Positions 8 through 63,682 of a stretch of 64,000 nucleotides of DNA are shown one piece after another; position 1 is the first letter of the stretch; each line of letters starts with the position of its first letter. The position numbers and the translations under genes are program-made. Source of the DNA: Candidatus Woesearchaeota archaeon (GTDB lineage: Archaea; Nanobdellota; Nanobdellia; Woesearchaeales; B29-G15); the NCBI GenBank assembly GCA_017610005.1, contig JAFCCU010000005.1:4205-68204 (forward strand). The letters run 5' to 3'. The notes below the pieces were generated by a model that saw only the letters and a program-made list of their open reading frames with translations, searched no databases and was not told the DNA's origin.

Positions 8-274
8 ATGGGCTTTTTGTCCTTGGGATCATACTTGCAGGTATTTTCATTAAGCTTACTTAGGTATATGACTCATGGAATATTTGAAATCCTAGCTTAT
101 TTTATAGCAGGGCTTGCTGGAGGGATAATCTCTGTTGCAGTTATCAGGCATGACTTTGCAAGCAAGGACTTTAATCACATCATCGCAGATTCACTTGATC
201 TTTTAATAATTGCAATAATTGTACTCTTTGTAGCAGCGCTTGTTGAAGTATATATTACTCCGTTGATGTTTTAG
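8..274 (+). CDS. Stage II sporulation protein M (SpoIIM)-family membrane protein, probably the 3' part of a gene starting before the window
   Basis: Hydrophobic ORF with HGIFEILAYFIAGLAG and LFVAALVEVYITP motifs typical of SpoIIM-family C-termini; lies at the window edge. Confidence 0.7.
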   Translation: MGFLSLGSYLQVFSLSLLRYMTHGIFEILAYFIAGLAGGIISVAVIRHDFASKDFNHIIADSLDLLIIAIIVLFVAALVEVYITPLMF

Positions 275-362
275 TCTGAAGTTAGAAGTCTAAAGTTAAA
301 AACACTTTCTACTATACACTAAACCTTACACCCTATAACAGTCAGAAGTCTAAAGTTCAAGG
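271..362 (+). repeat. Heptamer (GAAGTCT-type) array with GTTAAAAACACT/ACCTTA linker
   Basis: TAGTCT GAAGTTA GAAGTCT AAAGTTA, starting at the upstream stop codon; more units at about 340-362. Confidence 0.8.
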
Positions 363-403
363 CCCAAACCTTAGTAAGTTTTTTATACATCACTTAATTT
401 TTT

Positions 404-862
404 GTGTTTGTGGAACAATTTGTGCTTGTTATTGAACGGGAAGGTAAGAAGCGTTATGTTTTAACATTAGAGAATCCTGGTAAGGGGTTAAAGGATGTTA
501 ATAGAAAGGCGCTTTTTGGGGCATTAAGAGAAGGTAATTCAGTAACTCCAGAAAACTTTATTGCAAGCCCTGATTTTTTGAAACTTTTGCACAAGGTTTG
601 GTCAGAAGATGTATTCCAAAATCCTGAAATGCTTGAAAATGCCAAAAAAGCAAATGATGGTTACGTGCTCGTGATTGATCCAAGAGCAAGAAAAACTAAA
701 GGAGAAGCCCAGAAAGAGGATATTATTGGGGCAATTGAAGTTAAAGGAGGGAAGATTGGCAAGTATTCTGCTAATCCAAAATATAAGCTCTTTACAAAAA
801 CAGGTTTTTTTAGAATGCCCTCTCCTGTTGAAAAAAAGCTTTTTGAAGAAATTAATAAATAA
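404..862 (+). CDS. Conserved hypothetical protein
   Basis: 152-aa ORF with VIDPR...EDIIGAIEVKGGKI...YSANPKYKLFT..GFFRMP; no function recognised. Confidence 0.6.
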   Translation: MFVEQFVLVIEREGKKRYVLTLENPGKGLKDVNRKALFGALREGNSVTPENFIASPDFLKLLHKVWSEDVFQNPEMLENAKKANDGYVLVIDPRARKTKGEAQKEDIIGAIEVKGGKIGKYSANPKYKLFTKTGFFRMPSPVEKKLFEEINK

Positions 863-1376
863 CTGCAACAACAATTCTTTGAATCTGGGAGAATCTTACT
901 CTTATTGGATCTCTTACTGGATTATTATCTCCTTTCATTAAAAAGTATTTTCCTTCATTATCTTCACTAATTCCAATCACTCTGTGAATGACTGTATCTT
1001 CTCCATCTTTGTAAGATACAATATCTCCTAAATGAATATCCTCTGGGCTTTGAGGTACAATTTCAATTGCATGAGAATCTTCATCAATCACGGGGTCCAT
1101 TGAATTTGTGTTTGTAAAATATGCCCATTGAGGGTTAGTTATGTCAATTACAACCTTATCTTGATAAACATGGATTTCCTCTTGTGCTATCCAATCATGA
1201 GGAGAAATTCTCTCAGATGAGGCGCTATTTGTAACAAGTCCCATTAAGCTACTTGATGCAGGTTGATTAGCGCCTTCTACAAGTAATACTTGGTTGGGAT
1301 TGGATAAGAAATTTTCAGTTAAGGCACCTACTAGAAAAGCAATTACAAGTAATATAAAAACACTTATCAACCTCAT
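852..1376 (-). CDS. Signal peptidase I-like protein (S26 family)
   Basis: N-terminal TM; NSMDP (catalytic Ser region), GDIVSY, VIHRV, MKGDNNPVRD motifs. Confidence 0.85.
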   Translation of the reverse strand: MRLISVFILLVIAFLVGALTENFLSNPNQVLLVEGANQPASSSLMGLVTNSASSERISPHDWIAQEEIHVYQDKVVIDITNPQWAYFTNTNSMDPVIDEDSHAIEIVPQSPEDIHLGDIVSYKDGEDTVIHRVIGISEDNEGKYFLMKGDNNPVRDPIRVRFSQIQRIVVAVIY

Positions 1377-1414
1377 TAGTTACTACTTTATAGTAATCCT
1401 TTATAAAGCTATGG

Positions 1415-1531
1415 GAAGTTAGGAGTTAGAAGTCTGAAGTCTGAAGTTAGAAGTTAGAAGTCTGAAGTCTGAAGTTAGAAGTCTGAAGTATATATTTTCT
1501 CTCCAAACTGCAGACTGCGTACTGCAAACTG
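1415..1531 (+). repeat. Heptamer array (11 units) followed by an inverted arm
   Basis: GAAGTCT/GAAGTTA units at 1415-1491; CAAACTG/CAGACTG units at 1503-1531. Confidence 0.95.
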
Positions 1532-1665
1532 TTAAGGGGCTTGAGAGCCAAGATCAATTGAACGAATCTTTTTTAGTGCGCTTGAGGGCACAGCCCGAAA
1601 CCACTTCACGTGGTACCGGAAAATTTATTTTCCGAGTACGCACAGATTGATCAAACGGATCTTTC
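1532..1665. repeat. Dispersed palindromic (REP-like) structured repeat, copy A
   Basis: 1569-1665 matches 44363-44459 at about 88/97 nt and contains nested hairpins. Confidence 0.85.
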
Positions 1666-1713
1666 CGTTTGATTAGAAAGTTTTTTATAGGAATTACTGT
1701 CTCGTTGACTAGA

Positions 1714-5718: not shown

Positions 5719-5827
5719 AAAAAGAGGTGATAGTAAGCAAACACATAGTGATTGCTATTTTGAAGTAAATACAAAATAATATTTAAAGGTTTCGGTGTAT
5801 TGAGCATTGCTAAGTGGTAAAAAAAAC

Positions 5828-6367
5828 ATGGAAAAATGTCCCTCTTGTAAAAGAACATTAGAACTTTATCGTCTAGATTTTATGCCACGACCTTTGTGTG
5901 AAAGTTGTTTATGCAAGAATATTGAGAGGAGAGTTAGGCGAGAGATAAGAACTCAATGCCCATTAACTAAGGGAGATACTGTAGTAATTGTAGATGATGG
6001 AAGTAAAGAAGCAAGGATGCTTGAATATATATTAAAGCGGTTGGAGAAGGATTTCCCAATTAAACTTTCAAAAAGTAAAGTAAAAAATGCAAAATATGCA
6101 TTACCTATTTCTTTAGATGAAGCAGCAGTAAGTTTTCTTGAACATGTAATAAATAAAAAAGGAAAAAAAATAGGATTTGCCCCATTAATGGTAGTTCATT
6201 CTGAAGAAGTAATTTTATTTACAAAATTAAAGAAACTTGGGGGAAAAAAGAAATTGATTAAGGGAAATATTAAAGATCATCTTGATACCCTTGAGAAAAA
6301 ACATGCGCAACTAAAATTTTCAATAATTAGATTTTCTAAAGAGTTAGAAGTAAGAAGTCTGAAGTAA
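5828..6367 (+). CDS. Degenerate TtuA/TtcA-like protein (Zn-binding N-terminus, eroded PP-loop)
   Basis: CPSC...LCESC followed by RRVRREI..., GDTVVIVDDGSKEA where SGGKDS is expected; C-terminus runs into the heptamer array. Confidence 0.5.
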   Translation: MEKCPSCKRTLELYRLDFMPRPLCESCLCKNIERRVRREIRTQCPLTKGDTVVIVDDGSKEARMLEYILKRLEKDFPIKLSKSKVKNAKYALPISLDEAAVSFLEHVINKKGKKIGFAPLMVVHSEEVILFTKLKKLGGKKKLIKGNIKDHLDTLEKKHAQLKFSIIRFSKELEVRSLK

Positions 6368-6637
6368 GAAGTCTGAAGTCTGAAGTAAGAAGTCTGAAGT
6401 CTGAAGTAAGAAGTAAGAAGTCTGAAGTCTGAAGTCTGAAGTAAGAAGTTAGAAGTAAGAAGTCTGAAGTCTGAAGTCTGGAGTGAAAAACAATATCAAC
6501 TATACCTTAAACCTTATACCTTAACGGTCTGGAGTCTGGAGTCTGGAGTGAAAAATATTATTTCTATATACCTTAAACTGTAAACCCTAAACTGTTCTCA
6601 GTATATATTAATACTTTAGACTGCAGACTTTAAACTG
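6340..6637 (+). repeat. Largest heptamer element: 21 tandem units, two linker modules and an inverted arm
   Basis: GAAGTCT/GAAGTAA/GAAGTTA at 6340-6486; GTGAAAAA-ACCTTA modules; GGAGTCT x3; TAGACTG/CAGACTT/TAAACTG arm. Confidence 0.97.
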
Positions 6638-6659
6638 AAATTTTTCCGGAAAAATTTCA
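6636..6659. repeat. Perfect 24-bp palindrome
   Basis: TGAAATTTTTCCGGAAAAATTTCA. Confidence 0.85.
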
Positions 6660-6695
6660 ATTAGACTATTTAATAAGCGAAGTTTGTTAAGATGA

Positions 6696-12560: not shown

Positions 12561-12595
12561 TGTCTGAAGTTAGAAGTCCGAAGTGAAAAATACTA
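12561..12595 (+). repeat. Short heptamer array with GTGAAAAATACT linker
   Basis: TGTCT GAAGTTA GAAGTCC GAAGTGAAAAATACT. Confidence 0.8.
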
Positions 12596-12606: not shown

Positions 12607-13872
12607 TCAAAAGGGTTTTACTTTGGTGAAATAATCATTAATGCTTTTTAAATGGGTTTTTTCGTTTTTTATTTGTTTATTTTTCATAATTACCTTGCCG
12701 TTAATTATGCTTAATTCTACATCTGATCCATTGGATGAGTAGATAATATGGGAAATAATGGTTTCTTTTTTAGCTGGGAAGAATTTTGGTTGATTTATTG
12801 GGATACCTATAATATCTGCTAAAAAATTTTTTTCAATTCTTCCAGTTTTTAAACGTAAGATTTCTGCTGCATTTCTAGTTGCCATATCTAGAATGGCCTG
12901 AGTGGGCATTACAGTTGAATCATTTAAAGAATATTTGTGTAGCAAGCCAGTTGCCTTCATCTCTTCAAAGATATCTTGATTGTTGTTACTTGCATTGCTG
13001 TCTGTTCCTAAACTCACGTTTGTTTTAAATTTTAATAGCTCTGGTACTGGAAGTCTGGCGCCAGATGCAAGTTTAAGATTGCTAACTGGACAATGAACGG
13101 CGCTTGCGCCTGTTTTTGCATAATCTTTGGTTTCATTTAGCCAACAAAGGTGAATCCCAATTGTGTTTTTATTTAGGAAATTTATACTGTTTAGATAATC
13201 AATTACTCCTTTACCTGTTTTCTTTTTAATAAATTCTGCTTCGGGTTTTGTTTCAAGAATGTGAATAAAATTAAGCATGTTAAGTTCATTTGCAAGGCTT
13301 GCACCTGCTTTTAGTAAATCTTCTGAACAAGTATTTGGGGCGTGAATCCCAATAGCTTGGGTGATTAATTCTCGATTTTTTAATTTTGGAATCAGATCTT
13401 TTGTTATCTTCAATTCTTCTTTTATTTTGTTTTTATCAAATAAATCAAGCATGCAATAACTTAAAAATGCCCTGATCCCAATTGTTTCTGCAGCTTCTGC
13501 CACGCGTTCAATCCCAAAAGAGTGATCACAAAACGTGGTTGTGCCTGCTTTTACACTTTCAAGCGCAGTGAGTAGTGATCCATAATAAACATCTTTGATT
13601 TTTCTTTCGGCGGGCCAAACTTTCTTTTCAAGCCAATCTTTTAGTGGGAGATCATCTGAAATTCCTCTTAGAAGGTTTGTGCAAGTGTGAGTATGAAGAT
13701 TGATTAGGCCAGGCATAATCAACATGTCAGAGCAGTCAATTGCTGGACATTTCTCATCGGCCTTTCCAATTTTAACAATCTGATTATCTTGGATCAATAT
13801 GTCCTGGTGCTCCAGCACCTCGCGTTTATCATTTTGCGTTACAATGAAGCGGCAGTTTTTAAGTAATAACAT
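12607..13872 (-). CDS. mtaD: Amidohydrolase, MTA/SAH deaminase-like
   Basis: PGLINLHTH, IHILET, VHCPVSNLKLASG, LGTDSNASNN motifs. Confidence 0.85.
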   Translation of the reverse strand: MLLLKNCRFIVTQNDKREVLEHQDILIQDNQIVKIGKADEKCPAIDCSDMLIMPGLINLHTHTCTNLLRGISDDLPLKDWLEKKVWPAERKIKDVYYGSLLTALESVKAGTTTFCDHSFGIERVAEAAETIGIRAFLSYCMLDLFDKNKIKEELKITKDLIPKLKNRELITQAIGIHAPNTCSEDLLKAGASLANELNMLNFIHILETKPEAEFIKKKTGKGVIDYLNSINFLNKNTIGIHLCWLNETKDYAKTGASAVHCPVSNLKLASGARLPVPELLKFKTNVSLGTDSNASNNNQDIFEEMKATGLLHKYSLNDSTVMPTQAILDMATRNAAEILRLKTGRIEKNFLADIIGIPINQPKFFPAKKETIISHIIYSSNGSDVELSIINGKVIMKNKQIKNEKTHLKSINDYFTKVKPF

Positions 13873-15944: not shown

Positions 15945-16982
15945 CTATATTAAGTTGTTAATATCGTTGACCATTTCTTTTCTTGGGCCCTCTTCTTGGA
16001 ACTTGCCTAGAATCCAAGGGGATTTTACTCCAGTTATAATTGTCATGACAGTAATCTTCCCAACCATATTCTCATCGATGCGTGCCCCCCAAATGACATT
16101 TGCATCTGGATCAAGTTCTTGAGTTATTTGTTCACCAACTTGAGTAATATCATCAAGAGTCAAGTCTGGCCCCCCTTCAATGTGAATTAGGGCCCCCCTT
16201 GCTCCTTTGTAATCAATTTCAAGCAAGGGATTTTTTAGTGCTAAATCCACTGCTTGTTGTACGTGTTTATCACCTGCGCTAGACCCTACGCCAATGGCAG
16301 CAACTCCTCCATTAGTCATAATGGCTTTAACGTCTGCATAATCAAGATTAACTAAGGAAGGCACTGAGATTGTTTCTACAATTCCTTTAATCATTGTTGC
16401 AATTAATTCATTTGCAATTGCAAATGCTTGTTGCACTGGTAAATTCCCTGCGATTTGCACAAGTCTATTATTATCAACCACAATAACTGTATCGCAGTGT
16501 GCCCTCATTTGTGAGAGCCCAAATTCTGCTTTATCCATTCTAGCTCTTTCTATTGAAAATGGCATTGTAACTGTTCCAATAGTTATTGCTTTCATTTCAG
16601 AAGTTAATTTTCCAATGACTGGAGCAGCACCTGTTCCAGTGCCTCCGCCCATGCCTGCGCATAAAAATACCATATCAACGCCTTGCATTAATTCCCTCAT
16701 TTCATATAAAGATTCTTCTGCAGCACTACTTCCTTGTTTTGGATAGCCACCAGCTCCAAGGCCCTTTGTGACATTTTTTCCAATTAGCAGTTTTTTATCT
16801 GCTTCACTGATATTCAAATGTTGTTGATCAGTGTTACATGCAATAATTTCAGCTCCTTTGATCCCTTTTTTATATAACCAAGAAACCATATTACAACCTG
16901 CTCCACCAATCCCAAGAACTTTAATATTAGCTTGACCTATATCAAGATTTCCAGAATGTTCCTCAACTTCTAAAATAGACAT
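15945..16982 (-). CDS. ftsZ: Cell division protein FtsZ (paralogue A)
   Basis: IKVLGIGGAG, NTD, GMGGGTGTG signature, NLDYAD T7 loop; ATG at 16982 follows a GAGG SD-like site (ORF track starts at 17018). Confidence 0.97.
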   Translation of the reverse strand: MSILEVEEHSGNLDIGQANIKVLGIGGAGCNMVSWLYKKGIKGAEIIACNTDQQHLNISEADKKLLIGKNVTKGLGAGGYPKQGSSAAEESLYEMRELMQGVDMVFLCAGMGGGTGTGAAPVIGKLTSEMKAITIGTVTMPFSIERARMDKAEFGLSQMRAHCDTVIVVDNNRLVQIAGNLPVQQAFAIANELIATMIKGIVETISVPSLVNLDYADVKAIMTNGGVAAIGVGSSAGDKHVQQAVDLALKNPLLEIDYKGARGALIHIEGGPDLTLDDITQVGEQITQELDPDANVIWGARIDENMVGKITVMTIITGVKSPWILGKFQEEGPRKEMVNDINNLI

Positions 16983-17061
16983 TTTAAACCTCGTTAATCT
17001 CTTTTTATTTGCATACACATAACTTATTAATAAATGTTACGTTTTTGTATACTAGTATATC

Positions 17062-17117
17062 TCAGTCTGAAGTCTGAAGTCTGAAGTCTGAAGTCTGAAG
17101 TCTAAAGTTTGAAGTGT
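17062..17117 (+). repeat. Heptamer array (8 units) in the ftsZ/trmI divergent promoter region
   Basis: TCAGTCT, GAAGTCT x5, AAAGTTT, GAAGTGT. Confidence 0.95.
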
Positions 17118-17170
17118 GACTGGCTTCAAGGTATCTGGGGAGGGTTTTTTGGAAAGGTTTTTAATAAGGT

Positions 17171-19579: not shown

Positions 19580-20632
19580 ATGAAAATAATTAAGAGTAAT
19601 TATAAGCATGGTGAGCTTGTAATTAAAATTGAGAATTTGAATGATTTATGGTATTTGTCACAGGTTTTAGAGCCAAGAGATATTGTTAAGGGTAAAACTG
19701 AAAGGAAAATTAGTATTGGTGGTAAGGAAGAAAAAAGGCAAATAAAACGAGTTTGGATTACTCTTTCTTTAGAAGTTGAAAAAATTGAATTTCATAAGTA
19801 TTCAGATGTTTTAAGAGTTTCAGGAAAAATTACTGAGGGCACAGATGATATACCCCATGGTCAATATCACACAATTAATGTTGAACCAGGAATTATTTTG
19901 ACAATTACAAAAGTTGAATGGCTTGATTATCAAAAAAAATACATTAAAGAGTCTTTAGAAAATGCTCCGGAATTTTTACTTTGTGTGCTTGATCGCGATG
20001 AAGCTTGCTTTGCACTTTTAACGGGGCAAGGATATAGGATTTTGAGTTCTTTTAAGGGAGAAGTTGAAAATAAGCGGGTTAAAGATAAAAAACCAACTCA
20101 CTTCTATGGAGATGTAATAAAATTAATTGAAGATTACAATAAACGGCATAAAGTAAAATCCATAATTATTGCGTCTCCTTCTTTTTGGAAAGAGGATTTA
20201 TTAAAGGAAATTAAAAGTCCAGAATTAAAACAAAAAATTATTCAAGCAACTTGTAATCACACTGGGCAGCAAGGGATTAATGAAGTGTTAAAACGAGATG
20301 AACTACAAACTGCATTAAAAGAAGATAGAATTAGTCATGAAATGGTAATTGTTGAGCAATTATTAAAAGAAATTTCTTTAGATAAAAATGCGGCTTATGG
20401 TATGAAAGAAACAATTAAAGCAACAAATGCTGGGGCGGTATTAACTTTGCTTGTGACAGATGAACTAATAAGAGAAACAAGGCAAAAAGAAACATATGCT
20501 GGCCTTGCAAATATCATGAAAGCAGCACAACATAGCGGTGCCAAAATTGAAATTATTGAATCTGAGAACCCTGGCGGGAAAAAGCTTGATGGTCTTGGAG
20601 GCATTGGCGCAATTCTGAGGTACAAGTTATGA
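19580..20632 (+). CDS. pelA: mRNA surveillance protein Pelota
   Basis: NLNDLWYLSQVL, LRVSGKI, HTINVE, LDGLGGIGAILRY. Confidence 0.96.
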   Translation: MKIIKSNYKHGELVIKIENLNDLWYLSQVLEPRDIVKGKTERKISIGGKEEKRQIKRVWITLSLEVEKIEFHKYSDVLRVSGKITEGTDDIPHGQYHTINVEPGIILTITKVEWLDYQKKYIKESLENAPEFLLCVLDRDEACFALLTGQGYRILSSFKGEVENKRVKDKKPTHFYGDVIKLIEDYNKRHKVKSIIIASPSFWKEDLLKEIKSPELKQKIIQATCNHTGQQGINEVLKRDELQTALKEDRISHEMVIVEQLLKEISLDKNAAYGMKETIKATNAGAVLTLLVTDELIRETRQKETYAGLANIMKAAQHSGAKIEIIESENPGGKKLDGLGGIGAILRYKL

Positions 20633-20723
20633 GTCTAAAGTTTAAAGTTCAAAGTCCAAAGTCCCTTCTTACTTCAAACTTCTTACTTCAAACTTCTTAC
20701 TTCAGACTTCTTACTTCAAACTG
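20630..20723. repeat. Heptamer array with an inverted 14-bp-period arm
   Basis: TGAGTCT AAAGTTT AAAGTTC AAAGTCC AAAGTCC, then repeated ACTTCTT ACTTCAA units; begins at the pelota stop. Confidence 0.92.
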
Positions 20724-20733
20724 TAGGTGACGT

Positions 20734-26536: not shown

Positions 26537-27180
26537 GAGAAATACAAACCGGAGTATTTGAAGGAAATAGGAAACTGTATACTTTAAACAAGATTAAGGG
26601 CAACCCGGTTTATGGTGAGCCTTTTGTAAATCAAAACGGAAAAGAGTTTAGAGAATGGAATCCAAGCAGAAGCAAACTTGCAGCAGCAATATTAAAGGGT
26701 ATGGAAGGAATTAAAATTGACGAAAAAACAACTGTGCTTTATTTGGGGGCTGCTTCAGGCACAACAGTTTCTCATGTTGCTGATATCTGTAAATGGGTTT
26801 TCGCATTAGAGTTTTCAGTTGAGACATTTTCAGATTTATTACTTGTTGCAGAAAAAAGAAAAAATATAATTCCTTTGCTTGCGGATGCAACAATGCCAGA
26901 AGAATATTTCCATAGAGTAAAGGCAGTTGACTTTTTATACCAAGATATTGCACAAAAACAACAAGTAGAGATATTTGAGAGAAATTGTAGATTATTCTTA
27001 AAACCTGGTGGACTTGGATTTTTATGTGTTAAAGCAAGAAGTATTGATGTTTCAAAACACCCAAAGAAAATTTTTGGAGAAGTTAAAGAGCAATTAAAAA
27101 ATTCTTTTAGAGTTCTTGATAATAGAACAATGCAACCTTTTCAGCGAGATCATGCAGCTTTTCTAGTACAAAGACGTTAG
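26533..27180 (+). CDS. flpA: Fibrillarin (rRNA/tRNA 2'-O-methyltransferase)
   Basis: REWNPSRSKLAAA, VLYLGAASGTTVSHVAD, YQDIAQ, VKARSID. Confidence 0.96.
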   Translation: MREIQTGVFEGNRKLYTLNKIKGNPVYGEPFVNQNGKEFREWNPSRSKLAAAILKGMEGIKIDEKTTVLYLGAASGTTVSHVADICKWVFALEFSVETFSDLLLVAEKRKNIIPLLADATMPEEYFHRVKAVDFLYQDIAQKQQVEIFERNCRLFLKPGGLGFLCVKARSIDVSKHPKKIFGEVKEQLKNSFRVLDNRTMQPFQRDHAAFLVQRR

Positions 27181-27266
27181 AAGTCTGAAGTAAGAAGTTT
27201 GAAGTAAGAAGTTTGAAGTAAGAAGTTTGAAGTAAGAAGTGAAAAACACTTATTTACCTTAACAGT
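27180..27266 (+). repeat. Heptamer array (9 units, 14-bp higher-order period) with GTGAAAAACACT/ACCTTAAC linker
   Basis: GAAGTCT, alternating GAAGTAA/GAAGTTT, GAAGTGA; begins at the fibrillarin stop. Confidence 0.95.
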
Positions 27267-27325
27267 TTGTAGAATTGTTAACAGTGTTTCTAGGAACAAA
27301 TTGAAGGATTCTTGAATTCTCTAAA

Positions 27326-28975: not shown

Positions 28976-29014
28976 GTTATTGTTCTTTTGGTTTACAACT
29001 TAAATATATTGTGA

Positions 29015-30403: not shown

Positions 30404-30477
30404 AGTAAGTATTTGGAGTGACTTCTATAAATATTTATTTATTTTCAAAATGCATTAGAATTGATTATTTTTAATAT

Positions 30478-30575
30478 ATTTACTGCAAATCGTTAAGGTG
30501 GAGGGTGAGAGGTATGGAGTTGAAGGCATAGTATTTTTCACTACAGACTCCGAACTGCAAACTCCAGACTGCTAA
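30478..30575 (-). repeat. Heptamer/linker element immediately 3' of tRNA-Ser
   Basis: Minus strand reads GCAGTCT GGAGTTT GCAGTTC GGAGTCT GTAGTGAAAAATACT ... ACCTTAACG. Confidence 0.85.
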
Positions 30576-37251: not shown

Positions 37252-37257
37252 AGGAAC

Positions 37258-37306
37258 CTTATGTGCACATTAATATTTAAATCTTTCGTTAAAATGTGCA
37301 CATAAG
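37258..37306. promoter_or_regulatory. Pair of inverted operator-like sites around a TATA box between the divergent Fic and CYTH genes
   Basis: CTTATGTGCACATT (37258-37271) and its exact inverse (37293-37306); each contains the palindrome ATGTGCACAT. Confidence 0.65.
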
Positions 37307-37346
37307 TTCTGATCGATTTAAATACGTAAGAAAGTTAAGAATTCTT

Positions 37347-39843: not shown

Positions 39844-40923
39844 ATGGACTTTGTAGTCGAAAACGCAGTTAAAAATGCACAAGAAAATTTTGAAGAGTTA
39901 GATGTAGGGCAAGCCAACATTAAAGTTATTGGTGTTGGCGGTGCTGGTAATAATATGGTTTCTTGGTTATATAAGAAAGGAATCAAGGGAGCGGAAATTA
40001 TTGCATGCAACACTGATCAACAACATTTGAATATCTCTGAAGCTGATAAAAAGTTCTTGCTAGGTAAGGATTGTACCAAGGGACTTGGATGCGGTGGATA
40101 TCCAGACAAAGGCGCTGAAGCAACTAAGGAATCTATCCAAGAAGTAAAAGAATCACTTCGCGGTTCAGATATGGTATTTGTTTGCGCAGGAATGGGTGGA
40201 GGCACTGGAACCGGTGGAGCACCAGTTATTGCAAAACTTTCCAAAGAAAACAATTCAATTGTGATTGGAACAGTTACTATGCCCTTTAAAATTGAAAGAG
40301 CCAGAGTAGATAAAGCAGAGTATGGTTTACAACAATTAAGGCAAGTAGCTGATACTGTTATTGTGATAGATAATAATAGACTTGTGCAAATTGCAGGAAA
40401 CTTGCCCGTGCAGCAGGCTTTTGCAGTAGCAAATGAACTTATTGCAACCATGATTAAAGGCATTGTTGAAACAATTGCAATTCCAAGTTTAGTTAACTTA
40501 GACTTTGCTGATGTTAAGGCAATTATGACAAATGGTGGAGTTGCTGCAATCGGAGTAGGAGCAAGTGACACCAATAACCGAGTTGAAGAGGCAGTTAACA
40601 GTGCATTAAGTAACCCTTTATTGGATATTGACTACAAGGGTGCCTCTGGCGCACTCATTCATGTTGTTGGTGGTCCAGATTTAACCTTGGATGAAATAAG
40701 CCAGATAGGTGAGCTTGTTACAGGTTCACTTGATGAAGATGCAAATGTCATCTGGGGAGCAAGGATTAGAGAAGATATGAAGGGACGTGTTACTGTCATG
40801 ACTATTATGACTGGTGTTAAATCTCCTTGGATCTTAGGGCGAAATCAGACAGAAGAGCGCGTTGTTCAGAGAGTCGAGATGACTGAACTGGATGATGAGC
40901 TAGGCATTGAAGTCTTGAGATAA
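39844..40923 (+). CDS. ftsZ: Cell division protein FtsZ (paralogue B)
   Basis: IKVIGVGGAG, GMGGGTGTG, NLDFAD. Confidence 0.97.
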   Translation: MDFVVENAVKNAQENFEELDVGQANIKVIGVGGAGNNMVSWLYKKGIKGAEIIACNTDQQHLNISEADKKFLLGKDCTKGLGCGGYPDKGAEATKESIQEVKESLRGSDMVFVCAGMGGGTGTGGAPVIAKLSKENNSIVIGTVTMPFKIERARVDKAEYGLQQLRQVADTVIVIDNNRLVQIAGNLPVQQAFAVANELIATMIKGIVETIAIPSLVNLDFADVKAIMTNGGVAAIGVGASDTNNRVEEAVNSALSNPLLDIDYKGASGALIHVVGGPDLTLDEISQIGELVTGSLDEDANVIWGARIREDMKGRVTVMTIMTGVKSPWILGRNQTEERVVQRVEMTELDDELGIEVLR

Positions 40924-46262: not shown

Positions 46263-47537
46263 TTATCCGCAAGTTGCGTCTGGTGCGCCTGTAGGAGCAG
46301 TTTCTCCCCATCCAAAGCCTGGAGTAGGGTTTGCTGCATCAAGAGGTACATTACATTCAGCTGGCGGTACTGCAAATGCAGAACAGATTACTTCTTGTAA
46401 TGCTGCTGGACTTCTACCTGCACTAACTTTAATACCATTAATAACTAGGCCAGGGGATCCACCAATCTCATACTTCTCATTTAATTCTTTATCAGAATTA
46501 AATAATGGGAATCTTCCATTTAGCCAGCTTTCTTTATCTTCAAGAAGTGCTGTTGCGGTAAATTCAGTATCAGCTGCCGCGACACAAGTGTCAAGTGCTG
46601 CTTGATTAACCCCAGTACTTGCAATACATTCATCCCTTTTTCCTTCTTCAAGGAAGCATTTTAAGTATGGGATGAACTTGTCATTTTGTTCCTTTTGGAT
46701 GCAGTATTGGTTTAATTGTTCGACAACTTCGGTTTCACCATGCATTGCATAATAAACATATCTAACTGTATAGTCGAATTTGTCCCCAAATGCTTCTACA
46801 ACTGGAATAAATCCTTTTTCAATTTGAGTTCCGTATGGGCAGTGGCTCATGACAAATAATTCAACTTCTGGAGTAGCTCTTTTATTACAAGCTAAAATTG
46901 CTCCCTTGCAATCGTCATCATCACAATCAACCTTTCCATCGCCATTATCATCTTTACCATTATCGCAAATTTCTGCTGCAGGATCAAAAGATGATCCTAG
47001 TCTTAATGATAATAATTCTCCTGTATCGTCAACAAAGTTTTCAATGTTGGCAAAGTTTTCATGAGACTGTACGCTTTTATCAAATAAGACTGCTGGTAAA
47101 AACTCAATATTGTTTTCTTCATATGCTTTTTTACCTGCTTCTGTGTTATAATCTAATTCAGTAACATCTAAGCCAGGGAAAATTTGTTCAAGAGATGTTT
47201 TAAATTGGCTTGTATCACAAGTTTCACATCTTGTATCACTGATAATTGTTAGTTTAACAACTTCTCCACTTGGTGTCACAGTTTCATCTGGTGTCACAGT
47301 TTCATCTGGTGTAACAGTTTCATCTGGTGTAACAGTTTCATCTGGTGTTTCAACAGGAGTTGTTGGTTTTTTTATAGACATAAAAATTACAAAAGCAATA
47401 AGTGCTATAACAACTGCAACAGTTGCAATTGTTCCCCAATCAGTTCTTGGAGCTTTTTTATCCTTAGTTACCTTTTTTGTTTCATGCTTAGTTACCTTTT
47501 TTGTTTCATTTTTTTTTGTAGTTTTTTTCTTTGCCAT
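46263..47537 (-). CDS. Membrane-anchored thioredoxin-fold (DsbA/glutaredoxin-like) protein
   Basis: Basic N-terminus, TM, TPDETV linker, CETC, Cys/Asp-rich repeat, FVMSHCPYG, GSPGLVING. Confidence 0.75.
   Translation of the reverse strand: MAKKKTTKKNETKKVTKHETKKVTKDKKAPRTDWGTIATVAVVIALIAFVIFMSIKKPTTPVETPDETVTPDETVTPDETVTPDETVTPSGEVVKLTIISDTRCETCDTSQFKTSLEQIFPGLDVTELDYNTEAGKKAYEENNIEFLPAVLFDKSVQSHENFANIENFVDDTGELLSLRLGSSFDPAAEICDNGKDDNGDGKVDCDDDDCKGAILACNKRATPEVELFVMSHCPYGTQIEKGFIPVVEAFGDKFDYTVRYVYYAMHGETEVVEQLNQYCIQKEQNDKFIPYLKCFLEEGKRDECIASTGVNQAALDTCVAAADTEFTATALLEDKESWLNGRFPLFNSDKELNEKYEIGGSPGLVINGIKVSAGRSPAALQEVICSAFAVPPAECNVPLDAANPTPGFGWGETAPTGAPDATCG
47271..47348 (-). repeat. 18-bp in-frame tandem repeat (TPDETV, about 4 copies)
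   Basis: TCTGGTGT(C/A)ACAGTTTCA period visible on the + strand. Confidence 0.95.
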
Positions 47538-51813: not shown

Positions 51814-52089
51814 ATGAAGATAATTATTGATACAAAGGAAGATTCCAAAGAACATATAAGAAAAGCAGTTTTATTTTTGCAGACTATTGTAGACAGCAAC
51901 AATGTTGAGCCTATAACACCTGATTTTAACCCAGAACCTGCTGAAGGAGCCTTTGGGATGTTTGATACGCCACAGCAGTCTGGAGATAGCAGTCAGGAGT
52001 CTGGAGATAGTAGTATGGAGTCTGGAGATAGTAGTCTGGAGTCTGGAGAGAAAGAACCGTTTAATATGAATGATTTAATAGAATACTGA
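51814..52089 (+). CDS. Small acidic protein with SGDSSxE repeats
   Basis: MKIIIDTKEDS...; 21-bp repeats at 51975-52051; coupled to archease. Confidence 0.7.
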   Translation: MKIIIDTKEDSKEHIRKAVLFLQTIVDSNNVEPITPDFNPEPAEGAFGMFDTPQQSGDSSQESGDSSMESGDSSLESGEKEPFNMNDLIEY

Positions 52090-56737: not shown

Positions 56738-56747
56738 TTATTGTGAA

Positions 56748-58220: not shown

Positions 58221-58295
58221 ATGGGTAGTAATGATGAGGTGAACACCCTCTGACGCGAGAATGATGAGCGGAAGTAACTACTGAGCTACCCCCAT
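58221..58295 (+). ncRNA. Box C/D methylation-guide sRNA
   Basis: C box ATGATGA 58231-37, D' CTGA 58250-53, C' ATGATGA 58261-67, D CTGA 58281-84, 12- and 13-nt guides, GGGTAG/CTACCC terminal stem, TTTATAA box about 25 nt upstream. Confidence 0.9.
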
Positions 58296-58372
58296 TTTTA
58301 AGTCTGAAGTATAAAGTTAGAAGTACGAAGTTTGCAGTAAATATTTCTCCTGACTCCAAACTCCAGACTATT
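58296..58372. repeat. Two facing heptamer arms between the sRNA and the pan stop
   Basis: TAAGTCT GAAGTAT AAAGTTA GAAGTAC GAAGTTT GCAGTAA, then TGACTCC AAACTCC AGACTA. Confidence 0.85.
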
Positions 58373-61308: not shown

Positions 61309-61603
61309 TAACTAAGTGTTTATTAATTTTGCTAAGATTGTAGTATTTTGATTGGCCAATGATTAATACGGTTGCAAACATGACAGTTCCAAAGATATGA
61401 CTAAATTCTGTGAAGAAGTACCCTATGTCAATTAATTTTGTAATGTTTGACAATCTAAGCAAGAAACCTAGAGAGAAGATAGACAGGATTGCAATTAATG
61501 GGATTATTAGTTGTTTGTTTATTTTAAATTGATTTACAAAAAAGTAGAGAAGTATAATAGTTAATATTAATGTGCAAGATATTAGTATTATATTAATAAT
61601 CAT
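61271..61603 (-). CDS. Small three-TM membrane protein
   Basis: Three hydrophobic segments. Confidence 0.55.
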   Translation of the reverse strand: MIINIILISCTLILTIILLYFFVNQFKINKQLIIPLIAILSIFSLGFLLRLSNITKLIDIGYFFTEFSHIFGTVMFATVLIIGQSKYYNLSKINKHLVNEKSNEIRKKGV

Positions 61604-61671
61604 TTTTATATATTATTTAATATACATTTTATAATATAGATAAAGAAGAATACAAATAAAAAGGTTTCGGT

Positions 61672-62109
61672 TCATTCATGATATGGGTAAAAGTTTCCAT
61701 CAATCATTATGTAATGGGCTTCGATGACGCCTTTTGACGCATCAAATTCCCCAACAACCTGAATTGGATCGTTATCTTGGTCTCTAATTTCTTCATTAAT
61801 TGCTTCAACTGTGGTTCGATAGTCTCCTACAGTATATATGCTTCCATAGATACCTCTTGTGACTGGAAGAGAGTAAGATCCACTTTGAATTATAAATACT
61901 GGGCTTAGATCTTTGGTTCCAGGAGAACCTATTGGCTGACCTGTAACAACTACATTCCCATTATTAAAAGATCCTGGATTATTTGCAATTTCCTCTAGGG
62001 TTGTTGCCATATAGGAGGAGGTTTGTGTGCATCCAGATAATGCTAAGATTCCTAATCCTATTGCTGCGATATTTCTGATTTTTCTTGCTAGTCTTTTCAT
62101 TTTAACCAC
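61672..62109 (-). CDS. Putative lipoprotein, OB-fold-like
   Basis: LSGC lipobox-like; TLEEIANNPGSFNNGNVVVTG...VVGEF. Confidence 0.6.
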   Translation of the reverse strand: MVKMKRLARKIRNIAAIGLGILALSGCTQTSSYMATTLEEIANNPGSFNNGNVVVTGQPIGSPGTKDLSPVFIIQSGSYSLPVTRGIYGSIYTVGDYRTTVEAINEEIRDQDNDPIQVVGEFDASKGVIEAHYIMIDGNFYPYHE

Positions 62110-62179
62110 CTAATTTATGTAAGTAAATGATGCTTTTAAATGTAAAAGTAAGAAAAATGCGACTTTGCTGAGAATTTTA

Positions 62180-63682
62180 TTATTTAATTAATGATTTGCC
62201 AGTCATATCGTCAGGAATTGGAATACCCATTATTTCAAGAATTGTTGGGGCAACATCTTTTTGACCACCAGATTTTAAGTCTGAAGTCTGAAGTTTAAAG
62301 TCTGAAGTGACTAGGATGAAATTGATTGGGTTGCTTGAGTGGGCGGGTTTTGGGGTGCCATCTTTGTAGAGTTTTTCTTCGGCTGAGCCGTGGTCTGCTG
62401 TAACTAATAATGTATAGTTGTTATCCAGCGCTGATTTTACAATTCTGCCAGTGCATTCATCTACAACTCCAACACATTTAATTATTGCTTCTTTTACTGC
62501 GCTATGGCCAACTAAATCACAATTTGCTAAGTTGATTAAGATGAAATCATACTTCTGAGATTTGATTTGTTTTTCAGCTTCAACTGTTATTTCATATGCA
62601 CTCATTTCAGGTTTTTCATCATAAGATGGCACTTTTGCAGAAGGAATCATTATTCGTTCTTCTCCTTTATTAGGGTCTTCAATTTGAGAATTGAAAAAAT
62701 AAGTAACGTGGCCATACTTCTCTGTTTCAGCCATCCTTAGTTGTTTTAAACCATGTTCTGCGAGTACATGTCCTAAATTGTTTTTTACAAATTCTTCTTT
62801 GAATGCAACTGGGCACATAAACGTTCTGTCGTAAGAAGTCATTGCCAAATAATTGACTTTTAAGACTTTTCTTTCAAACATATGGAATCCATGAGAGATA
62901 AATGCCCGTGTTAATTGCCTTGGTCTATCTGTTCTGAAGTTGAAGAAGATTACAGAATCTTTATCTTTAATTGGTTGAAAACCGTCAAGGATTGTTGGTT
63001 GTATATAGTAGTCGGTTTTGTCTCCTCTTTTGTAAGCTAAATCAATTGCTTCGTTTGCAGTTTTTGCTTTAAAACCAGTTCCTTCTGTTAACATTTCATA
63101 GGCTTTTTTTGTTCTGTCCCAGTTTTGATCTCGATCCATTGAATAATATCTGCCAATAATAGAAATAATCTTGCCACAATTAAGTTCTTTACATTTATCT
63201 TCAATTATTTTTATATATTTTTTAGCTGATTTTTCAGGCACATCTCTGCCATCAGCAAAGAAATGAATAAAGACTTTCTTTTTTTTCTTGGCAGCTATTT
63301 CAAGCAGAGCTAGCAAGTGATTTGTGTGGGCATGCACGCCTTCATCAGAACAAAGCCCCATTAAATGGAGAGTATCTGACTTATCCATTACCTTTAAAAT
63401 TTGTTCATTTCTAAAAAAAGAGCCATCCTCCATAGCTTTGTTAATTTTCTCATACATCTGCCAAACAATTCTACCTGCCCCTAAATGTAAATGCCCTACT
63501 TCAGAATTGCCTTGAGTGCCTTTTGGCAGACCAACTGCATTTCCAGAAGCTTTATTTTGACAGTGAGGATATTTTGTTAATAGAGAATCAAATACAGGAG
63601 TATTTGCCATATCAATGTAATTTCCTGGCCCTGGAGGTGCAATACCCCACCCATCCTGAACAAGTAAAATTACTTTTTGCAT
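62180..63682 (-). CDS. gpmI: 2,3-bisphosphoglycerate-independent phosphoglycerate mutase (bacterial type)
   Basis: DGWG, VGLP..GNSEVGH, GRYYSMDRD, NFRTDR, AETEKYGHVT, DLVGH, TADHG, DVAPTIL. Confidence 0.97.
   Translation of the reverse strand: MQKVILLVQDGWGIAPPGPGNYIDMANTPVFDSLLTKYPHCQNKASGNAVGLPKGTQGNSEVGHLHLGAGRIVWQMYEKINKAMEDGSFFRNEQILKVMDKSDTLHLMGLCSDEGVHAHTNHLLALLEIAAKKKKKVFIHFFADGRDVPEKSAKKYIKIIEDKCKELNCGKIISIIGRYYSMDRDQNWDRTKKAYEMLTEGTGFKAKTANEAIDLAYKRGDKTDYYIQPTILDGFQPIKDKDSVIFFNFRTDRPRQLTRAFISHGFHMFERKVLKVNYLAMTSYDRTFMCPVAFKEEFVKNNLGHVLAEHGLKQLRMAETEKYGHVTYFFNSQIEDPNKGEERIMIPSAKVPSYDEKPEMSAYEITVEAEKQIKSQKYDFILINLANCDLVGHSAVKEAIIKCVGVVDECTGRIVKSALDNNYTLLVTADHGSAEEKLYKDGTPKPAHSSNPINFILVTSDFKLQTSDLKSGGQKDVAPTILEIMGIPIPDDMTGKSLIK

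What the first reader, a model, noticed from the sequence alone, without database searches (positions are those of the whole stretch)
271..62310. Window-wide family of 7-bp tandem arrays with a conserved linker and facing arms
Seen: at least nine intergenic arrays of (G/A)(A/G/C)AGT(CT/TA/AA/TT) at 271, 1415, 6340 (21 units), 12561, 17062, 20630, 27180, 30478 and 58296. They are not simple microsatellites. Units vary in an ordered way (14-bp higher-order periods), several end in the same GTGAAAAA(C/T)A linker followed by ACCTTA-type units (6484, 6547, 12583, 27239, 30530 minus; variant near 295), and several face an inverted arm that could form a stem-loop. Five begin at or within 2 nt of a stop codon (SpoIIM-like, TtuA-like, pelota, fibrillarin, pan) and one directly follows tRNA-Ser. 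Known: heptamer STRR repeats exist in heterocystous cyanobacteria. Inference: this is a composite dispersed element spread by an unknown mechanism, or a protein-binding or 3'-UTR signal.
Basis: partly seen in the sequence, partly recalled or inferred. Interest (0 to 1): 0.65.

Follow-up and report, generated by a model that had tools for sequence, protein, structure and literature searches.

The report
Dispersed heptamer repeat family in a DPANN archaeon
A small uncultured archaeon (Woesearchaeota-like) carries a lineage-specific family of 7-base tandem arrays with shared linker, junction and hairpin modules; it resembles the heptamer repeats known from cyanobacteria and other bacteria and is most likely a self-spreading satellite with no dedicated job, though its invariant AGT core leaves protein binding possible.

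Summary
Chains of AGT at 7-nt spacing with at least 3 units occur 19 times against 0.28 expected, and only period 7 is enriched. The linker AGTGAAAAAYA occurs exactly 5 times, each at an array's 3' end. A junction (CCTTAACRGTYTG), a hairpin loop and a 61-nt higher-order block (58/61 identical, opposite strands) recur between loci, so this is a dispersed composite family and not independent slippage.

The host is a Woesearchaeota-like DPANN archaeon. Five related lineages (about 74 kb, one syntenic) have no arrays.

Sense arrays carry stop codons in all three frames, which explains why they abut stop codons. The antisense strand is open, and one array lies inside the iPGM gene. Arrays stop at conserved promoter blocks. 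The linker is not a promoter, and sense arrays lack the oligo-T terminators that other genes here have.

The same (GAAGTCT)n arrays occur in more than 118 bacterial loci, with no orientation bias to genes.

Best reading: an STRR-like selfish or neutral satellite spread as convergent inverted modules plus local slippage. Two things remain unexplained: the AGT core is invariant while positions 6-7 vary freely (variation is even in bacteria), and inverted pairs are always convergent (14:0). No reads or transcriptomes were available.

The parts
271..298 (+). Array A, 4 units (TTAGTCT GAAGTTA GAAGTCT AAAGTTA). The first unit overlaps the SpoIIM-like stop TAG at 272-274.
294..337 (+). Linker variant AGTTAAAAACA, then module B (CTATACACTAAACCTTACACCCTATAAC) ending in the TAAC junction.
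338..358 (+). Second array A', 3 units. It is followed by T6 and the TATA box of the next gene at about 378-388.
1415..1491 (+). Array of 11 units with a 28-bp higher-order period. It starts right after the TATA box of the divergent gene 852-1376 (-).
1492..1532 (-). Loop ATATATTTTCTCTCC plus a facing arm of 4 units (GCAGTNN), preceded on its own strand by the CCCTTAAC junction.
6340..6486 (+). Array of 21 units (GAAGTCT / GAAGTAA / GAAGTTA, 21-bp higher-order period). It supplies the last 9 codons and the TAA stop of ORF 5807-6367 and ends in GGAGTGA.
6482..6526 (+). Linker AGTGAAAAACA, module B (TATACCTTAAACCTTATACCTTAAC) and junction.
6527..6557 (+). Second array (GGAGTCT x2, GGAGTGA) and a second exact linker AGTGAAAAATA.
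6558..6638 (.). Second module B (ATATACCTTAAACTGTAAACCCTAAACTG), loop AGTATATATTAATAC and a facing arm at 6611-6638 (-). The hairpin with 6527-6551 has z = -5.2. It is followed by a palindromic T5/A5 terminator at about 6636-6660.
12561..12592 (+). Short array (3 units) plus exact linker, antisense to both flanking genes. The linker complement TTTTTCAC is the first T5 tract, 17 nt after the stop of gene 12607-13872 (-).
17062..17119 (+). Array of 8 units ending GAAGTGTGA. It starts exactly where the FtsZ promoter block conserved with relative L301 ends (GTATATC).
20623..20724 (.). Convergent inverted pair. The + arm is 6 units and its TGAGTCT unit overlaps the pelota stop. The - arm is 8 units with a 14-bp higher-order period. 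The pair ends 10 nt before the EamA ATG, with an SD-like GGTGA and no TATA box between.
27180..27275 (+). Array of 9 units (14-bp period, 58/61 identical to the - arm at 20669-20724), linker AGTGAAAAACA, and short module B plus junction ACCTTAACAGTTTGTAG. It starts at the last base of the fibrillarin stop.
30470..30572 (-). Composite in minus orientation: a 5-unit array starting 3 nt after tRNA-Ser, linker AGTGAAAAATA, CCT-type heptamers, then junction CCTTAACGATTTGCAG.
58299..58371 (.). Convergent inverted pair: + arm of 6 units (after the C/D sRNA and its T5), loop AATATTTCTCC, and a - arm of 3 units starting 2 nt after the stop of the PAN-like gene. Hairpin z is -2.2 on the + strand and -3.9 on the - strand.
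62276..62310 (+). Array of 5 units ending GAAGTGA, lying antisense inside the iPGM coding region. It encodes TSDFKLQTSDL, and the query has 4 extra residues here relative to PDB homologues.
51973..52049 (+). In-frame 21-nt coding repeat made of three heptamers (GGAGTCT GGAGATA GTAGTNT). It encodes (E)SGDSS repeats in the tail of a 94-aa ORF.

Best explanation
The arrays form a lineage-specific, non-coding heptanucleotide satellite family of the kind known as STRR or long simple-sequence repeats in bacteria. Here it sits in a Woesearchaeota-like DPANN archaeon.

**Basic module.**
- The module is a polar array, 5'-AGTCT(GAAGTNN)nGAAGTGA-3'.
- It is followed either by an A5 mini-loop plus a diverged inverted arm (the 'linker' plus ACCTTA-type units, then TAAC and a new array), or by an ATATTTCTCC-type loop plus a well-matched inverted arm.

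**Dispersal.** Copies of such modules were pasted into at least 10 sites. This is shown by shared linker, junction and loop sequences and by one 61-nt block that is 95% identical on opposite strands. The pasting mechanism itself is inferred. I favour hairpin or template-switch copying, or REPIN/MITE-like mobilisation in trans, because no target-site duplications are seen.

**Local growth.** Each copy then grows and shrinks by replication slippage or unequal exchange in steps of 7, 14, 21 or 28 nt. This is inferred from the higher-order periods.

**Placement.** Where copies survive is set by purifying selection.
- The sense strand has stop codons in all three frames. An array can therefore abut or even supply a stop codon but cannot enter a gene.
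- The antisense strand is open in all frames and is tolerated in frame inside iPGM.
- Arrays end where promoter blocks begin.

**Function.** The family probably has no dedicated cellular function. Side effects are likely: long structured 3' UTRs, hairpins between convergent genes, and a T5 terminator tract supplied by the linker's complement.
For: **The family is real.** Only period 7 is enriched, and chains occur 19 times against 0.28 expected.

**The loci share a common origin.**
- The exact linker occurs 5 times, always at array 3' ends.
- The composite alignment and the junction recur.
- The arrays at 27180 (+) and 20669-20724 (-) are 58/61 identical, including their 14-bp higher-order period.
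- Array ends are conserved (AGTCT at the 5' end, AGTGA at the 3' end), and loops are shared.

**The family is lineage specific.**
- About 74 kb from five related lineages has no period-7 run. This includes syntenic L301/L302.
- The FtsZ promoter block is conserved with L301 up to the base where the array begins.
- The fibrillarin stop is at the same position as in L301, and the pelota stop one residue earlier.

**Placement fits constraint, not function.**
- One array lies antisense inside iPGM, with a 4-aa insertion relative to PDB homologues.
- An in-frame 21-nt coding version exists.
- Arrays occur at divergent promoters, inside the pelota-EamA unit and antisense to genes.

**The same kind exists in bacteria.**
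- (GAAGTCT)3+ occurs in more than 118 loci across many phyla, often as inverted pairs.
- 21 of 118 lie inside antisense ORFs and none inside sense ORFs.
- There is no orientation bias at gene ends: 26:20 at 3' ends and 32:33 at 5' ends.

**Literature.** Heptamer SSRs are the commonest long SSR class in prokaryotes, and the stop-codon argument was made for TAACTGA repeats (PMC4679880). Inverted heptamer arrays were noted in Xanthomonas (PMC4692102).
Against: - Positions 3-5 (AGT) are invariant in 66-67 of 67 TRF-defined units, while positions 6-7 are nearly saturated. The same walk in bacterial arrays gives even variation at all seven positions. A purely neutral satellite should not show this.
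- Six of seven sense arrays start 0-5 nt from the functional 3' end of the upstream gene, including a tRNA. Those genes lack the T5 tract that most other genes here have 2-29 nt after the stop.
- Ten of eleven loci with a clear primary orientation have the AGT strand on the window's + strand.
- No transposase, target-site duplication or empty site at close evolutionary distance was found, so the pasting step is not demonstrated.
- A strongly reduced genome would be expected to purge about 1 kb of useless DNA in 64 kb.
Confidence: 0.55

Rival explanations
1. The arrays are selected binding platforms for an oligomeric nucleic-acid-binding protein that reads an (A)AGT/(A)AGU core every 7 nt with free spacers. 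At the RNA level this follows the logic of HutP (XAG-N4, three per surface) or TRAP. At the DNA level it follows the logic of contiguous 7-bp heptad operators bound by ribbon-helix-helix proteins. Binding would mark or regulate gene 3' ends or local chromatin.
For: - The AGT core is invariant with hypervariable positions 6-7. Bacterial arrays vary evenly at all positions.
- Arrays start at stop codons, at a tRNA 3' end and just after a C/D sRNA. Orientation is sense for 7 of 8 abutted 3' ends.
- HutP recognises XAG repeated three times with 4-nt spacers, that is a 7-nt period (PMC2425495).
Against: - No HutP, TRAP or RHH-like protein is encoded in the window.
- Arrays are absent from all relatives, including the syntenic one, so any function is very young.
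- Unit number ranges from 3 to 21.
- Arrays also occur antisense, in coding sequence and at divergent promoters.
- Units within the window are not independent, because higher-order blocks were amplified. The core-invariance statistic rests on about 12 distinct states.
Confidence: 0.2
2. The arrays, especially the convergent inverted pairs, act in RNA as 3'-end elements. They would replace the canonical oligo-T terminator, or protect 3' ends from exonucleases as stable hairpins.
For: - Genes abutted by sense arrays have no T5 within 100 nt, whereas about 13 other genes have one 2-29 nt after the stop.
- Three hairpins are significantly stable.
- The pair at 58299-58371 gives each of two convergent genes a sense arm.
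Against: - The sense strand has no oligo-T.
- For the SpoIIM-like ORF and ORF 5807-6367, a normal T5/T6 tract sits immediately after the composite, as expected for an insertion between stop and terminator.
- The pelota-EamA array lies inside an apparent operon, 10 nt before an SD-led ATG with no promoter.
- Linker-type composites do not fold better than shuffles.
- Six of ten loci lack a facing arm.
Confidence: 0.1
3. The arrays are independent microsatellites that arose in place by slippage at each locus, with no dispersal.
For: - Heptamer SSRs are generally over-represented in prokaryotes (PMC4679880).
- Higher-order periods show that local slippage does occur.
Against: - Shared non-repeat modules: linker, junction and loop.
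- Conserved array termini.
- A 58/61-identical higher-order block at two loci on opposite strands.
- All arrays use the same core.
Confidence: 0.07
4. The arrays are contingency (phase-variation) loci that switch neighbouring genes by changes in copy number.
For: - Arrays touch coding ends (ORF 5807-6367, iPGM, the 94-aa ORF).
- Arrays lie next to promoters (FtsZ, gene 852-1376).
Against: - The neighbours are housekeeping genes: fibrillarin, pelota, a PAN-like ATPase, FtsZ, tRNA-Ser and topoisomerase.
- No array lies in a 5' coding region.
- A change of one 7-nt unit inside iPGM would destroy a glycolytic enzyme rather than switch a surface trait.
Confidence: 0.05
5. The arrays are an assembly or sequencing artefact.
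For: - The contig comes from a metagenome.
- Copy number in the 147-nt array could be mis-estimated by short reads.
Against: - Arrays sit at precise gene boundaries within conserved synteny.
- They have structured, locus-specific unit orders.
- One maintains the iPGM reading frame.
Confidence: 0.03

Closest known systems
STRR (short tandemly repeated repetitive) heptamers of heterocystous cyanobacteria, and heptanucleotide long SSRs of prokaryotes (Mazel 1990 and Mrazek 2007 from my own knowledge; reviewed in PMC4679880 and PMC4692102)
   Same: - Tandem 7-nt units.
- Many arrays per genome, mostly intergenic.
- Related unit variants, with inverted pairs occurring.
- No established function.
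- The identical unit GAAGTCT occurs as arrays in Nostoc, Calothrix and many other phyla.
   Different: - The host is a DPANN archaeon.
- Arrays have conserved termini and recurring non-repeat modules.
- The AGT core is invariant with free positions 6-7, unlike the even variation in the bacterial arrays sampled.
TAACTGA direct repeats of marine Beggiatoaceae, Cyanobacteria and Bacteroidetes (MacGregor 2015, PMC4679880)
   Same: - A heptamer whose complement TCAGTTA shares the AGT core.
- Intergenic location.
- One orientation has stops in all frames and can overlap gene ends only briefly. The other is translatable and is found inside ORFs.
- Patchy phylogenetic distribution.
   Different: - The Beggiatoaceae repeats have 2-6 copies and sit mostly just upstream of start codons in one orientation.
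- Here arrays reach 21 units, sit mostly at gene 3' ends and come with linker and hairpin modules.
REPINs / REP elements and MITEs (Bertels and Rainey 2011, PMC3116915; its details here are from my own knowledge)
   Same: - Short extragenic elements.
- The mobile form is an inverted doublet that makes a hairpin, and singlets look like decayed remnants.
- Lineage specific.
- The orientation of the two halves is fixed (here 14:0 convergent; and the window).
   Different: - REPs are not tandem heptamers.
- No RAYT or other transposase was seen in the window.
- No target-site duplications were seen.
HutP and TRAP RNA sites; 7-bp heptad operators of ribbon-helix-helix proteins such as omega of pSM19035 (HutP: PMC2425495; the others from my own knowledge)
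   Same: - A short conserved core at a fixed period with non-conserved spacers.
- A 7-nt period for HutP (XAG-N4) and for omega heptads.
- Direct and convergent inverted arrangements.
   Different: - Those sites are single regulatory loci with 3-11 units and a known cognate protein.
- Here there are at least 10 dispersed loci with 3-21 units, mostly at 3' ends, and no cognate protein has been identified.

Membership tests
Heptanucleotide long SSR / STRR-like repeat family | Head-to-tail copies of a 7-nt unit, in excess over chance and specific to period 7 | tested here: met
   TRF rows. Period scan: 11 runs at period 7, 0-1 at other periods. AGT chains: 19 found against 0.28 expected.
Heptanucleotide long SSR / STRR-like repeat family | Many arrays dispersed through the genome, mainly intergenic | tested here: met
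   Arrays lie in 9 of the 21 intergenic regions of at least 88 nt. Two arrays lie in coding sequence. Only 64 kb of the genome could be examined.
Heptanucleotide long SSR / STRR-like repeat family | Copy-number polymorphism between strains or reads | not testable with these tools
   No sequencing run holds the window, and no close relative is in the collections.
STRR in the strict sense | Host is a heterocystous cyanobacterium, with units STRR1-3 | tested here: not met
   The host is archaeal: fibrillarin, Nop, pelota, a C/D sRNA, and best named hits to Candidatus Woesearchaeota. The unit is GAAGTNN.
REPIN / MITE-like mobile element | Inverted terminal arms forming a hairpin, in a fixed arrangement | tested here: met
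   Four convergent pairs, of which three fold better than shuffles. In bacterial loci convergent versus divergent pairs are 10:0.
REPIN / MITE-like mobile element | Several near-identical copies at unrelated sites | tested here: met
   A 58/61-identical block, 5 exact linkers, and a recurring junction and loop.
REPIN / MITE-like mobile element | Target-site duplication and/or a cognate transposase (RAYT, IS200/IS605 or other) | tested here: not met
   Reading the flanks of the four hairpin elements shows no consistent flanking duplication. No transposase domain is found in any window ORF. The rest of the genome is unavailable.
Archaeal transcription terminator | Oligo-T tract on the sense strand close to the gene end | tested here: not met
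   Sense arrays contain no T5. Other genes have T5-T8 tracts 2-29 nt after the stop. Only the linker's complement gives a T5, and that serves antisense genes.
Archaeal promoter (BRE/TATA) | TTTATAWA-type box about 25-33 nt upstream of a start | tested here: not met
   This genome's promoters show TTTATAWA. The linker GTGAAAAAYAYTWT does not match it and is not positioned before starts.
HutP/TRAP-type RNA site or heptad operator | Conserved core at a fixed period with free spacers | tested here: met
   AGT is invariant in 66-67 of 67 units. Entropy is 1.63 and 1.26 bits at positions 6 and 7.
HutP/TRAP-type RNA site or heptad operator | Cognate oligomeric binding protein encoded in the genome | tested here: inconclusive
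   None is found among the window ORFs (and the earlier Pfam scans).
Contingency (phase-variation) SSR locus | SSR in the 5' coding region or promoter spacer of variable surface or host-interaction genes | tested here: not met
   The neighbours are housekeeping genes, and no array lies in a 5' coding region.

The most novel reading that the evidence does not exclude
The arrays are the RNA (or DNA) platform of an as-yet unknown oligomeric protein in this DPANN lineage. The protein would read AGU/AGT every 7 nt and mark gene 3' ends, including those of tRNA and sRNA genes. It would replace or precede oligo-T termination. That would be a new post-transcriptional or termination device built from a domesticated heptamer satellite. 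The same logic might explain why inverted heptamer arrays are always convergent across bacteria and archaea.
Probability: 0.12. Interest if true: 0.75.

Novelty: new member of a known kind. Interest (0 to 1): 0.45.

Why it matters
- **New host.** Heptamer satellites are a long-noted but unexplained feature of some bacterial genomes. Finding a structured family in a genome-reduced DPANN archaeon shows the phenomenon crosses domains and persists under strong genome streamlining. The family has conserved termini, linker, junction and loop, and it fills roughly a fifth of the intergenic DNA in this window.
- **Two concrete handles on mechanism.** The AGT core is invariant with free spacers, and inverted pairs are strictly convergent (14:0 across window and bacteria).
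- **Practical consequences.**
  - The arrays supply or abut stop codons and can sit in frame inside enzymes, which matters for gene calling in such MAGs.
  - The 21-nt exact repeats are likely sources of mis-assembly.
- **If neutral.** In that case it is an ordinary, though tidy, example of a selfish satellite.

Tried and rejected
**Searches that led nowhere**
- Rfam at gathering and at permissive thresholds found only tRNA-Ser and a weak C/D sRNA match. No RNA family covers the arrays.
- Exact-protein look-ups of window proteins found nothing on record.
- Two searches for sequencing runs found none, so no length-polymorphism or RNA 3'-end test was possible.
- Viral-contig scans for array plus linker and for module B gave only chance matches without arrays.
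- Literature searches found no report of heptamer arrays in DPANN or Woesearchaeota. Mrazek 2007 and Elhai 2008 are not held in the library.

**Scans that were too loose**
  - About 12 of 120 hits are true arrays ending in GTGAAAAAYA, in unrelated organisms with GC 0.30-0.65. One (L146) is bacterial.
  - Because the pattern demanded the linker, this cannot show that the linker is general. In the 118 bacterial GAAGTCT loci it is not.

**Hypotheses rejected**
- Linker as promoter: rejected against this genome's own TTTATAWA boxes.
- Replication-strand polarity: the window shows 10:1 in favour of the + strand, but bacterial arrays split 49:49 against local GC skew.
- Arrays as synteny breakpoints versus L301: all four arrays in the comparable stretch lie at non-conserved junctions. 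However, 18 of 26 junctions are non-conserved (my own hand count), giving p about 0.23, which is not informative.
- Linker-type composites as stable hairpins: z is about 0.
- ACCTTA as a stand-alone enriched hexamer: not enriched.

Full report

Yes. Tandem Repeats Finder lists period-7, -14, -21 and -28 arrays at all the named places, and the sequence shows them directly.

Chaining AGT triplets at exactly 7-nt spacing finds 19 chains of at least 3 units on the two strands. One hundred dinucleotide shuffles give 0.28. At periods 4-12, AGT chains of at least 4 units occur only at period 7 (12 against 0). A composition-free period scan gives 11 runs at period 7 and 0-1 at every other period.

The arrays are:
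- On the + strand: 271, 338, 1415 (11 units), 6340 (21 units), 6531, 12566, 17062 (8), 20623, 27180 (9), 58299 and 62276.
- On the - strand: 1505, 6611, 20669 (8), 30538 and 58351.
- A 21-nt coding repeat at 51973-52049 is built from the same heptamers.

**2. Linker and composite structure**

AGTGAAAAAYA occurs exactly five times, each time as the 3' end of an array. A one-mismatch copy ends the array at 271.

After the linker comes YTWT, then heptamers of the type TA(A/T)ACCT, then a junction CCTTAAC(R)GTYTG that leads into a new AGT array. The junction recurs at 332, 6520, 27260, 30490 (-) and 1532 (-). The bare hexamer ACCTTA is not enriched; it is the longer module that recurs.

Arrays have polar, conserved ends:
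- Seven start with AGTCT, and three more with close variants (AAGTCT, TGTCT, GGTCT), even where the interior uses other units.
- Seven end in AGTG(A/T).

The bases after the A5 run are the complement of the last unit (AAGTG-AAAAA-CACTT at 27238). I therefore read the 'linker plus ACCTTA units' as a small loop followed by an old, diverged inverted arm. This reading is inference.

A second architecture has a well-matched inverted arm. It occurs at 1415/1505, 6531/6611, 20623/20669 and 58299/58351. The loops at 1492 and 58341 share ATATTT(T)CTC(TC)C. Three of the four fold significantly better than shuffles.

**3. Dispersal rather than independent slippage**

The array at 27180 (+) and the arm at 20669-20724 (-) are 58/61 identical, including the 14-bp higher-order unit GAAGTAAGAAGTTT and the terminal GAAG(T/G)GA. 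Together with the shared linker, junction, loop and termini, this shows that multi-unit modules were copied between loci in either orientation.

The higher-order periods (14, 21 and 28 bp) show that local expansion also occurs.

I found no target-site duplication and no transposase in the window. The copying mechanism is therefore not shown.

**4. Who carries it**

The window encodes:
- fibrillarin, Nop56/58, pelota and a PAN-like AAA ATPase;
- two FtsZ paralogues, archease and RtcB;
- a DnaG-like Toprim protein;
- a canonical C/D box sRNA.

The best named fibrillarin relatives are Candidatus Woesearchaeota, at no more than 64% identity. No close relative and no sequencing run could be found.

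Seven loci from five related lineages, about 74 kb in all, contain no period-7 run at all. One of them (L301/L302) is syntenic over FtsZ, the GCD14-like methyltransferase, pelota, Nop, fibrillarin, a transglutaminase-like gene and a radical SAM gene. There:
- The FtsZ promoter block is conserved base for base up to GTATATC, and the window's array begins at the next base.
- The fibrillarin stop is at the same position, and the pelota stop one residue earlier.

The arrays are therefore recent, lineage-specific additions. They fill unconstrained spacer up to the edges of functional elements.

**5. Why they sit at stop codons**

In the sense orientation, (GAAGTCT)n, GAAGTAA and GAAGTTA give TGA, TAA or TAG in all three frames within 21 nt. 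This can be read directly from the sequence. An array can therefore abut or supply a stop but cannot extend into a gene.
- In ORF 5807-6367 the last nine codons and the stop are array sequence.
- The complement (AGACTTC)n is open in all frames. The array at 62276-62310 lies antisense inside iPGM and encodes TSDFKLQTSDL, in a loop where the protein has four extra residues relative to solved homologues.
- The same argument was made for TAACTGA repeats (PMC4679880).

A rough ORF-based look at 118 bacterial loci agrees. Twenty-one arrays lie inside antisense ORFs and none inside sense ORFs. Co-oriented upstream genes end within 22 nt of the array start in 31 of 45 cases.

**6. Tests of function**

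- *Promoters.* This genome's promoters are clear TTTATAWA boxes 25-33 nt before starts, including those of the tRNA and the sRNA. The linker does not resemble them.
- *Terminators.* Most genes with a free 3' flank have T5-T8 tracts 2-29 nt after the stop. Genes abutted by sense arrays have none within 100 nt.
  - In two cases (the SpoIIM-like ORF and ORF 5807-6367) a normal T6 or palindromic T5 tract sits immediately after the composite. That is what an insertion between stop and terminator would give.
  - The complement of the linker (TTTTTCAC) is the first T5 behind two antisense genes, at 12607 and 27326.
- *Operon position.* The pelota-EamA array ends 10 nt before an SD-led ATG with no TATA box. 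It must therefore be transcribed through.
- *Placement by region type.* Arrays lie in 7 of 13 intergenic regions of about 90 nt or more that contain a 3' end, and in 2 of 8 purely divergent ones. This is not a significant difference.

None of this requires a function.

**7. What does not fit a neutral satellite**

(a) *Core invariance.* In 67 units from TRF-defined, non-coding arrays, positions 3-5 (AGT) are invariant in 66-67 units. Positions 6 and 7 carry 1.63 and 1.26 bits of entropy.
- The same phase walk from GAAGTCT seeds gives 2% mismatches at each core position in the window.
- It gives 26-35% at those positions in the bacterial loci, where all seven positions vary about equally.
- The window's units are not independent. 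Even so, counted as distinct states, 11 of 12 possible non-core states occur against 1-3 of 9 core states, and those core states appear only at array edges.

(b) *Convergent-only pairs.* Inverted pairs are always convergent, (GAAGTCT)n-loop-(AGACTTC)n. The count is 4 of 4 in the window and 10 of 10 in the bacterial loci, with no divergent pair.

(c) *Strand bias.* Ten of eleven loci with a clear orientation have the AGT strand on the window's + strand. In bacteria, orientation is unrelated to local GC skew (49:49). This may simply reflect local copying.

These points keep a protein-recognition model alive. The pattern of a conserved core at a 7-nt period with free spacers is that of HutP sites (XAG three times with 4-nt spacers; PMC2425495). 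From my own knowledge it is also that of TRAP sites and of contiguous 7-bp heptads bound by ribbon-helix-helix proteins. No such protein is encoded in the window.

**8. Relation to what is known**

The hosts include Acidobacteriota, Planctomycetota, Nostoc, Calothrix, Dialister, Bacteroidota, Myxococcota and others. These loci often have neighbouring arrays of one-mismatch units and often form inverted pairs.

At bacterial gene ends the nearest arm is sense or antisense about equally (26:20 at 3' ends, 32:33 at 5' ends). This argues against a general sense-strand RNA role.

From the literature:
- Heptamer repeats are the commonest long SSR class in prokaryotes (Mrazek 2007, as summarised in PMC4679880).
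- STRR heptamers are classical in heterocystous cyanobacteria.
- Inverted heptamer arrays were noted in Xanthomonas (PMC4692102).
- I found no report for DPANN archaea.

I therefore file this as a new member of a known kind. It has unusually clear modular structure and core constraint.

**9. Verdict**

The most likely explanation (0.55) is a selfish or neutral composite heptamer satellite. It is copied as convergent palindromic modules, expanded by slippage, and positioned by selection.

The main rival (0.2) is a selected protein-binding platform. A 3'-end or hairpin role (0.1), independent slippage (0.07), phase variation (0.05) and artefact (0.03) are less likely.

The decisive data are the rest of the genome, reads from the source sample, and transcript 3' ends. 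None was reachable here.

**Limits of this work**
- Only 64 kb of the organism was seen.
- The bacterial gene-context statistics rest on crude ORF calls.

Noticed in passing
window 58222-58297 (+): A canonical archaeal C/D box sRNA. Its layout is ATGATGA, a 12-nt guide, CTGA, 7 nt, ATGATGA, a 13-nt guide, CTGA. It has a GGGTAG/CTACCC terminal stem, a TTTATAAG box about 30 nt upstream and a T5 tract right after it. Rfam gives only a weak full-length match to sR1 (E = 0.58).
   Followed up: partly
window 27181-30574, compared with L301 9543-9793: Relative to the syntenic relative, a two-gene block has been inserted between fibrillarin and tRNA-Ser/transglutaminase. The block holds a glycogen-phosphorylase-like gene and pyruvate kinase, both on the - strand. 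It is flanked by composites in inverted orientation (27180-27275 + and 30572-30470 -). The tRNA gene is also on the opposite strand compared with the relative.
   Followed up: partly
window 17035-17061 and L301 about 2605-2632: A near-palindromic motif TTTTGTATACT(A/G)GTATATC upstream of FtsZ is conserved between two lineages whose proteins are only about 55-70% identical. It may be an operator of the cell-division gene.
   Followed up: no
bacterial loci L001-L118 and the window: Adjacent inverted heptamer arms are always convergent, (GAAGTCT)n-loop-(AGACTTC)n. The count is 10:0 in bacterial loci and 4:0 in the window. No explanation was found. Hairpin stability alone would not distinguish the two arrangements.
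   Followed up: partly
L157 2454-2560, L190 3987-4160: Two cyanobacterium-like metagenome contigs also carry CCCCAGT arrays. In both, (AGGAGTC)n arrays end in GTGAAAAATA and are followed by the same flank and an inverted arm. This is the same array-linker-arm layout as in the window. It may be coincidence, because the search pattern demanded the linker.
   Followed up: partly
window 47271-47348 and 47456-47514 (inside ORF 46263-47537, -): An 18-nt repeat (4.3 copies, 98% matches) and a 24-nt repeat lie within a 424-aa ORF that has no Pfam hit. Both are in-frame coding repeats unrelated to the heptamer family.
   Followed up: no
window 37252-37295: The divergent region between the Fic-domain gene and ORF 37296-37823 holds two inverted copies of CTTATGTGCACAT around TTTAAATATT. 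It looks like an operator overlapping both promoters.
   Followed up: no
window 1533-1668: A 135-nt stretch lies between the 1505-1532 arm and the annotated topoisomerase start. It has a duplicated GCTTGAG(A/G)GC, a T6 tract and no Rfam match. A TATA-like box at about 1680 suggests the real topA start is downstream of the TTG at 1669. It may hold a small RNA.
   Followed up: no
window 30470-30575 (-): tRNA-Ser(GCT) has no oligo-T tract within 110 nt of its 3' end, only the composite. Its precursor would therefore carry a long trailer unless termination here uses another signal.
   Followed up: no
window 15945-17018 (-) and 39844-40923 (+): Two FtsZ paralogues lie within 23 kb of each other.
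   Followed up: no
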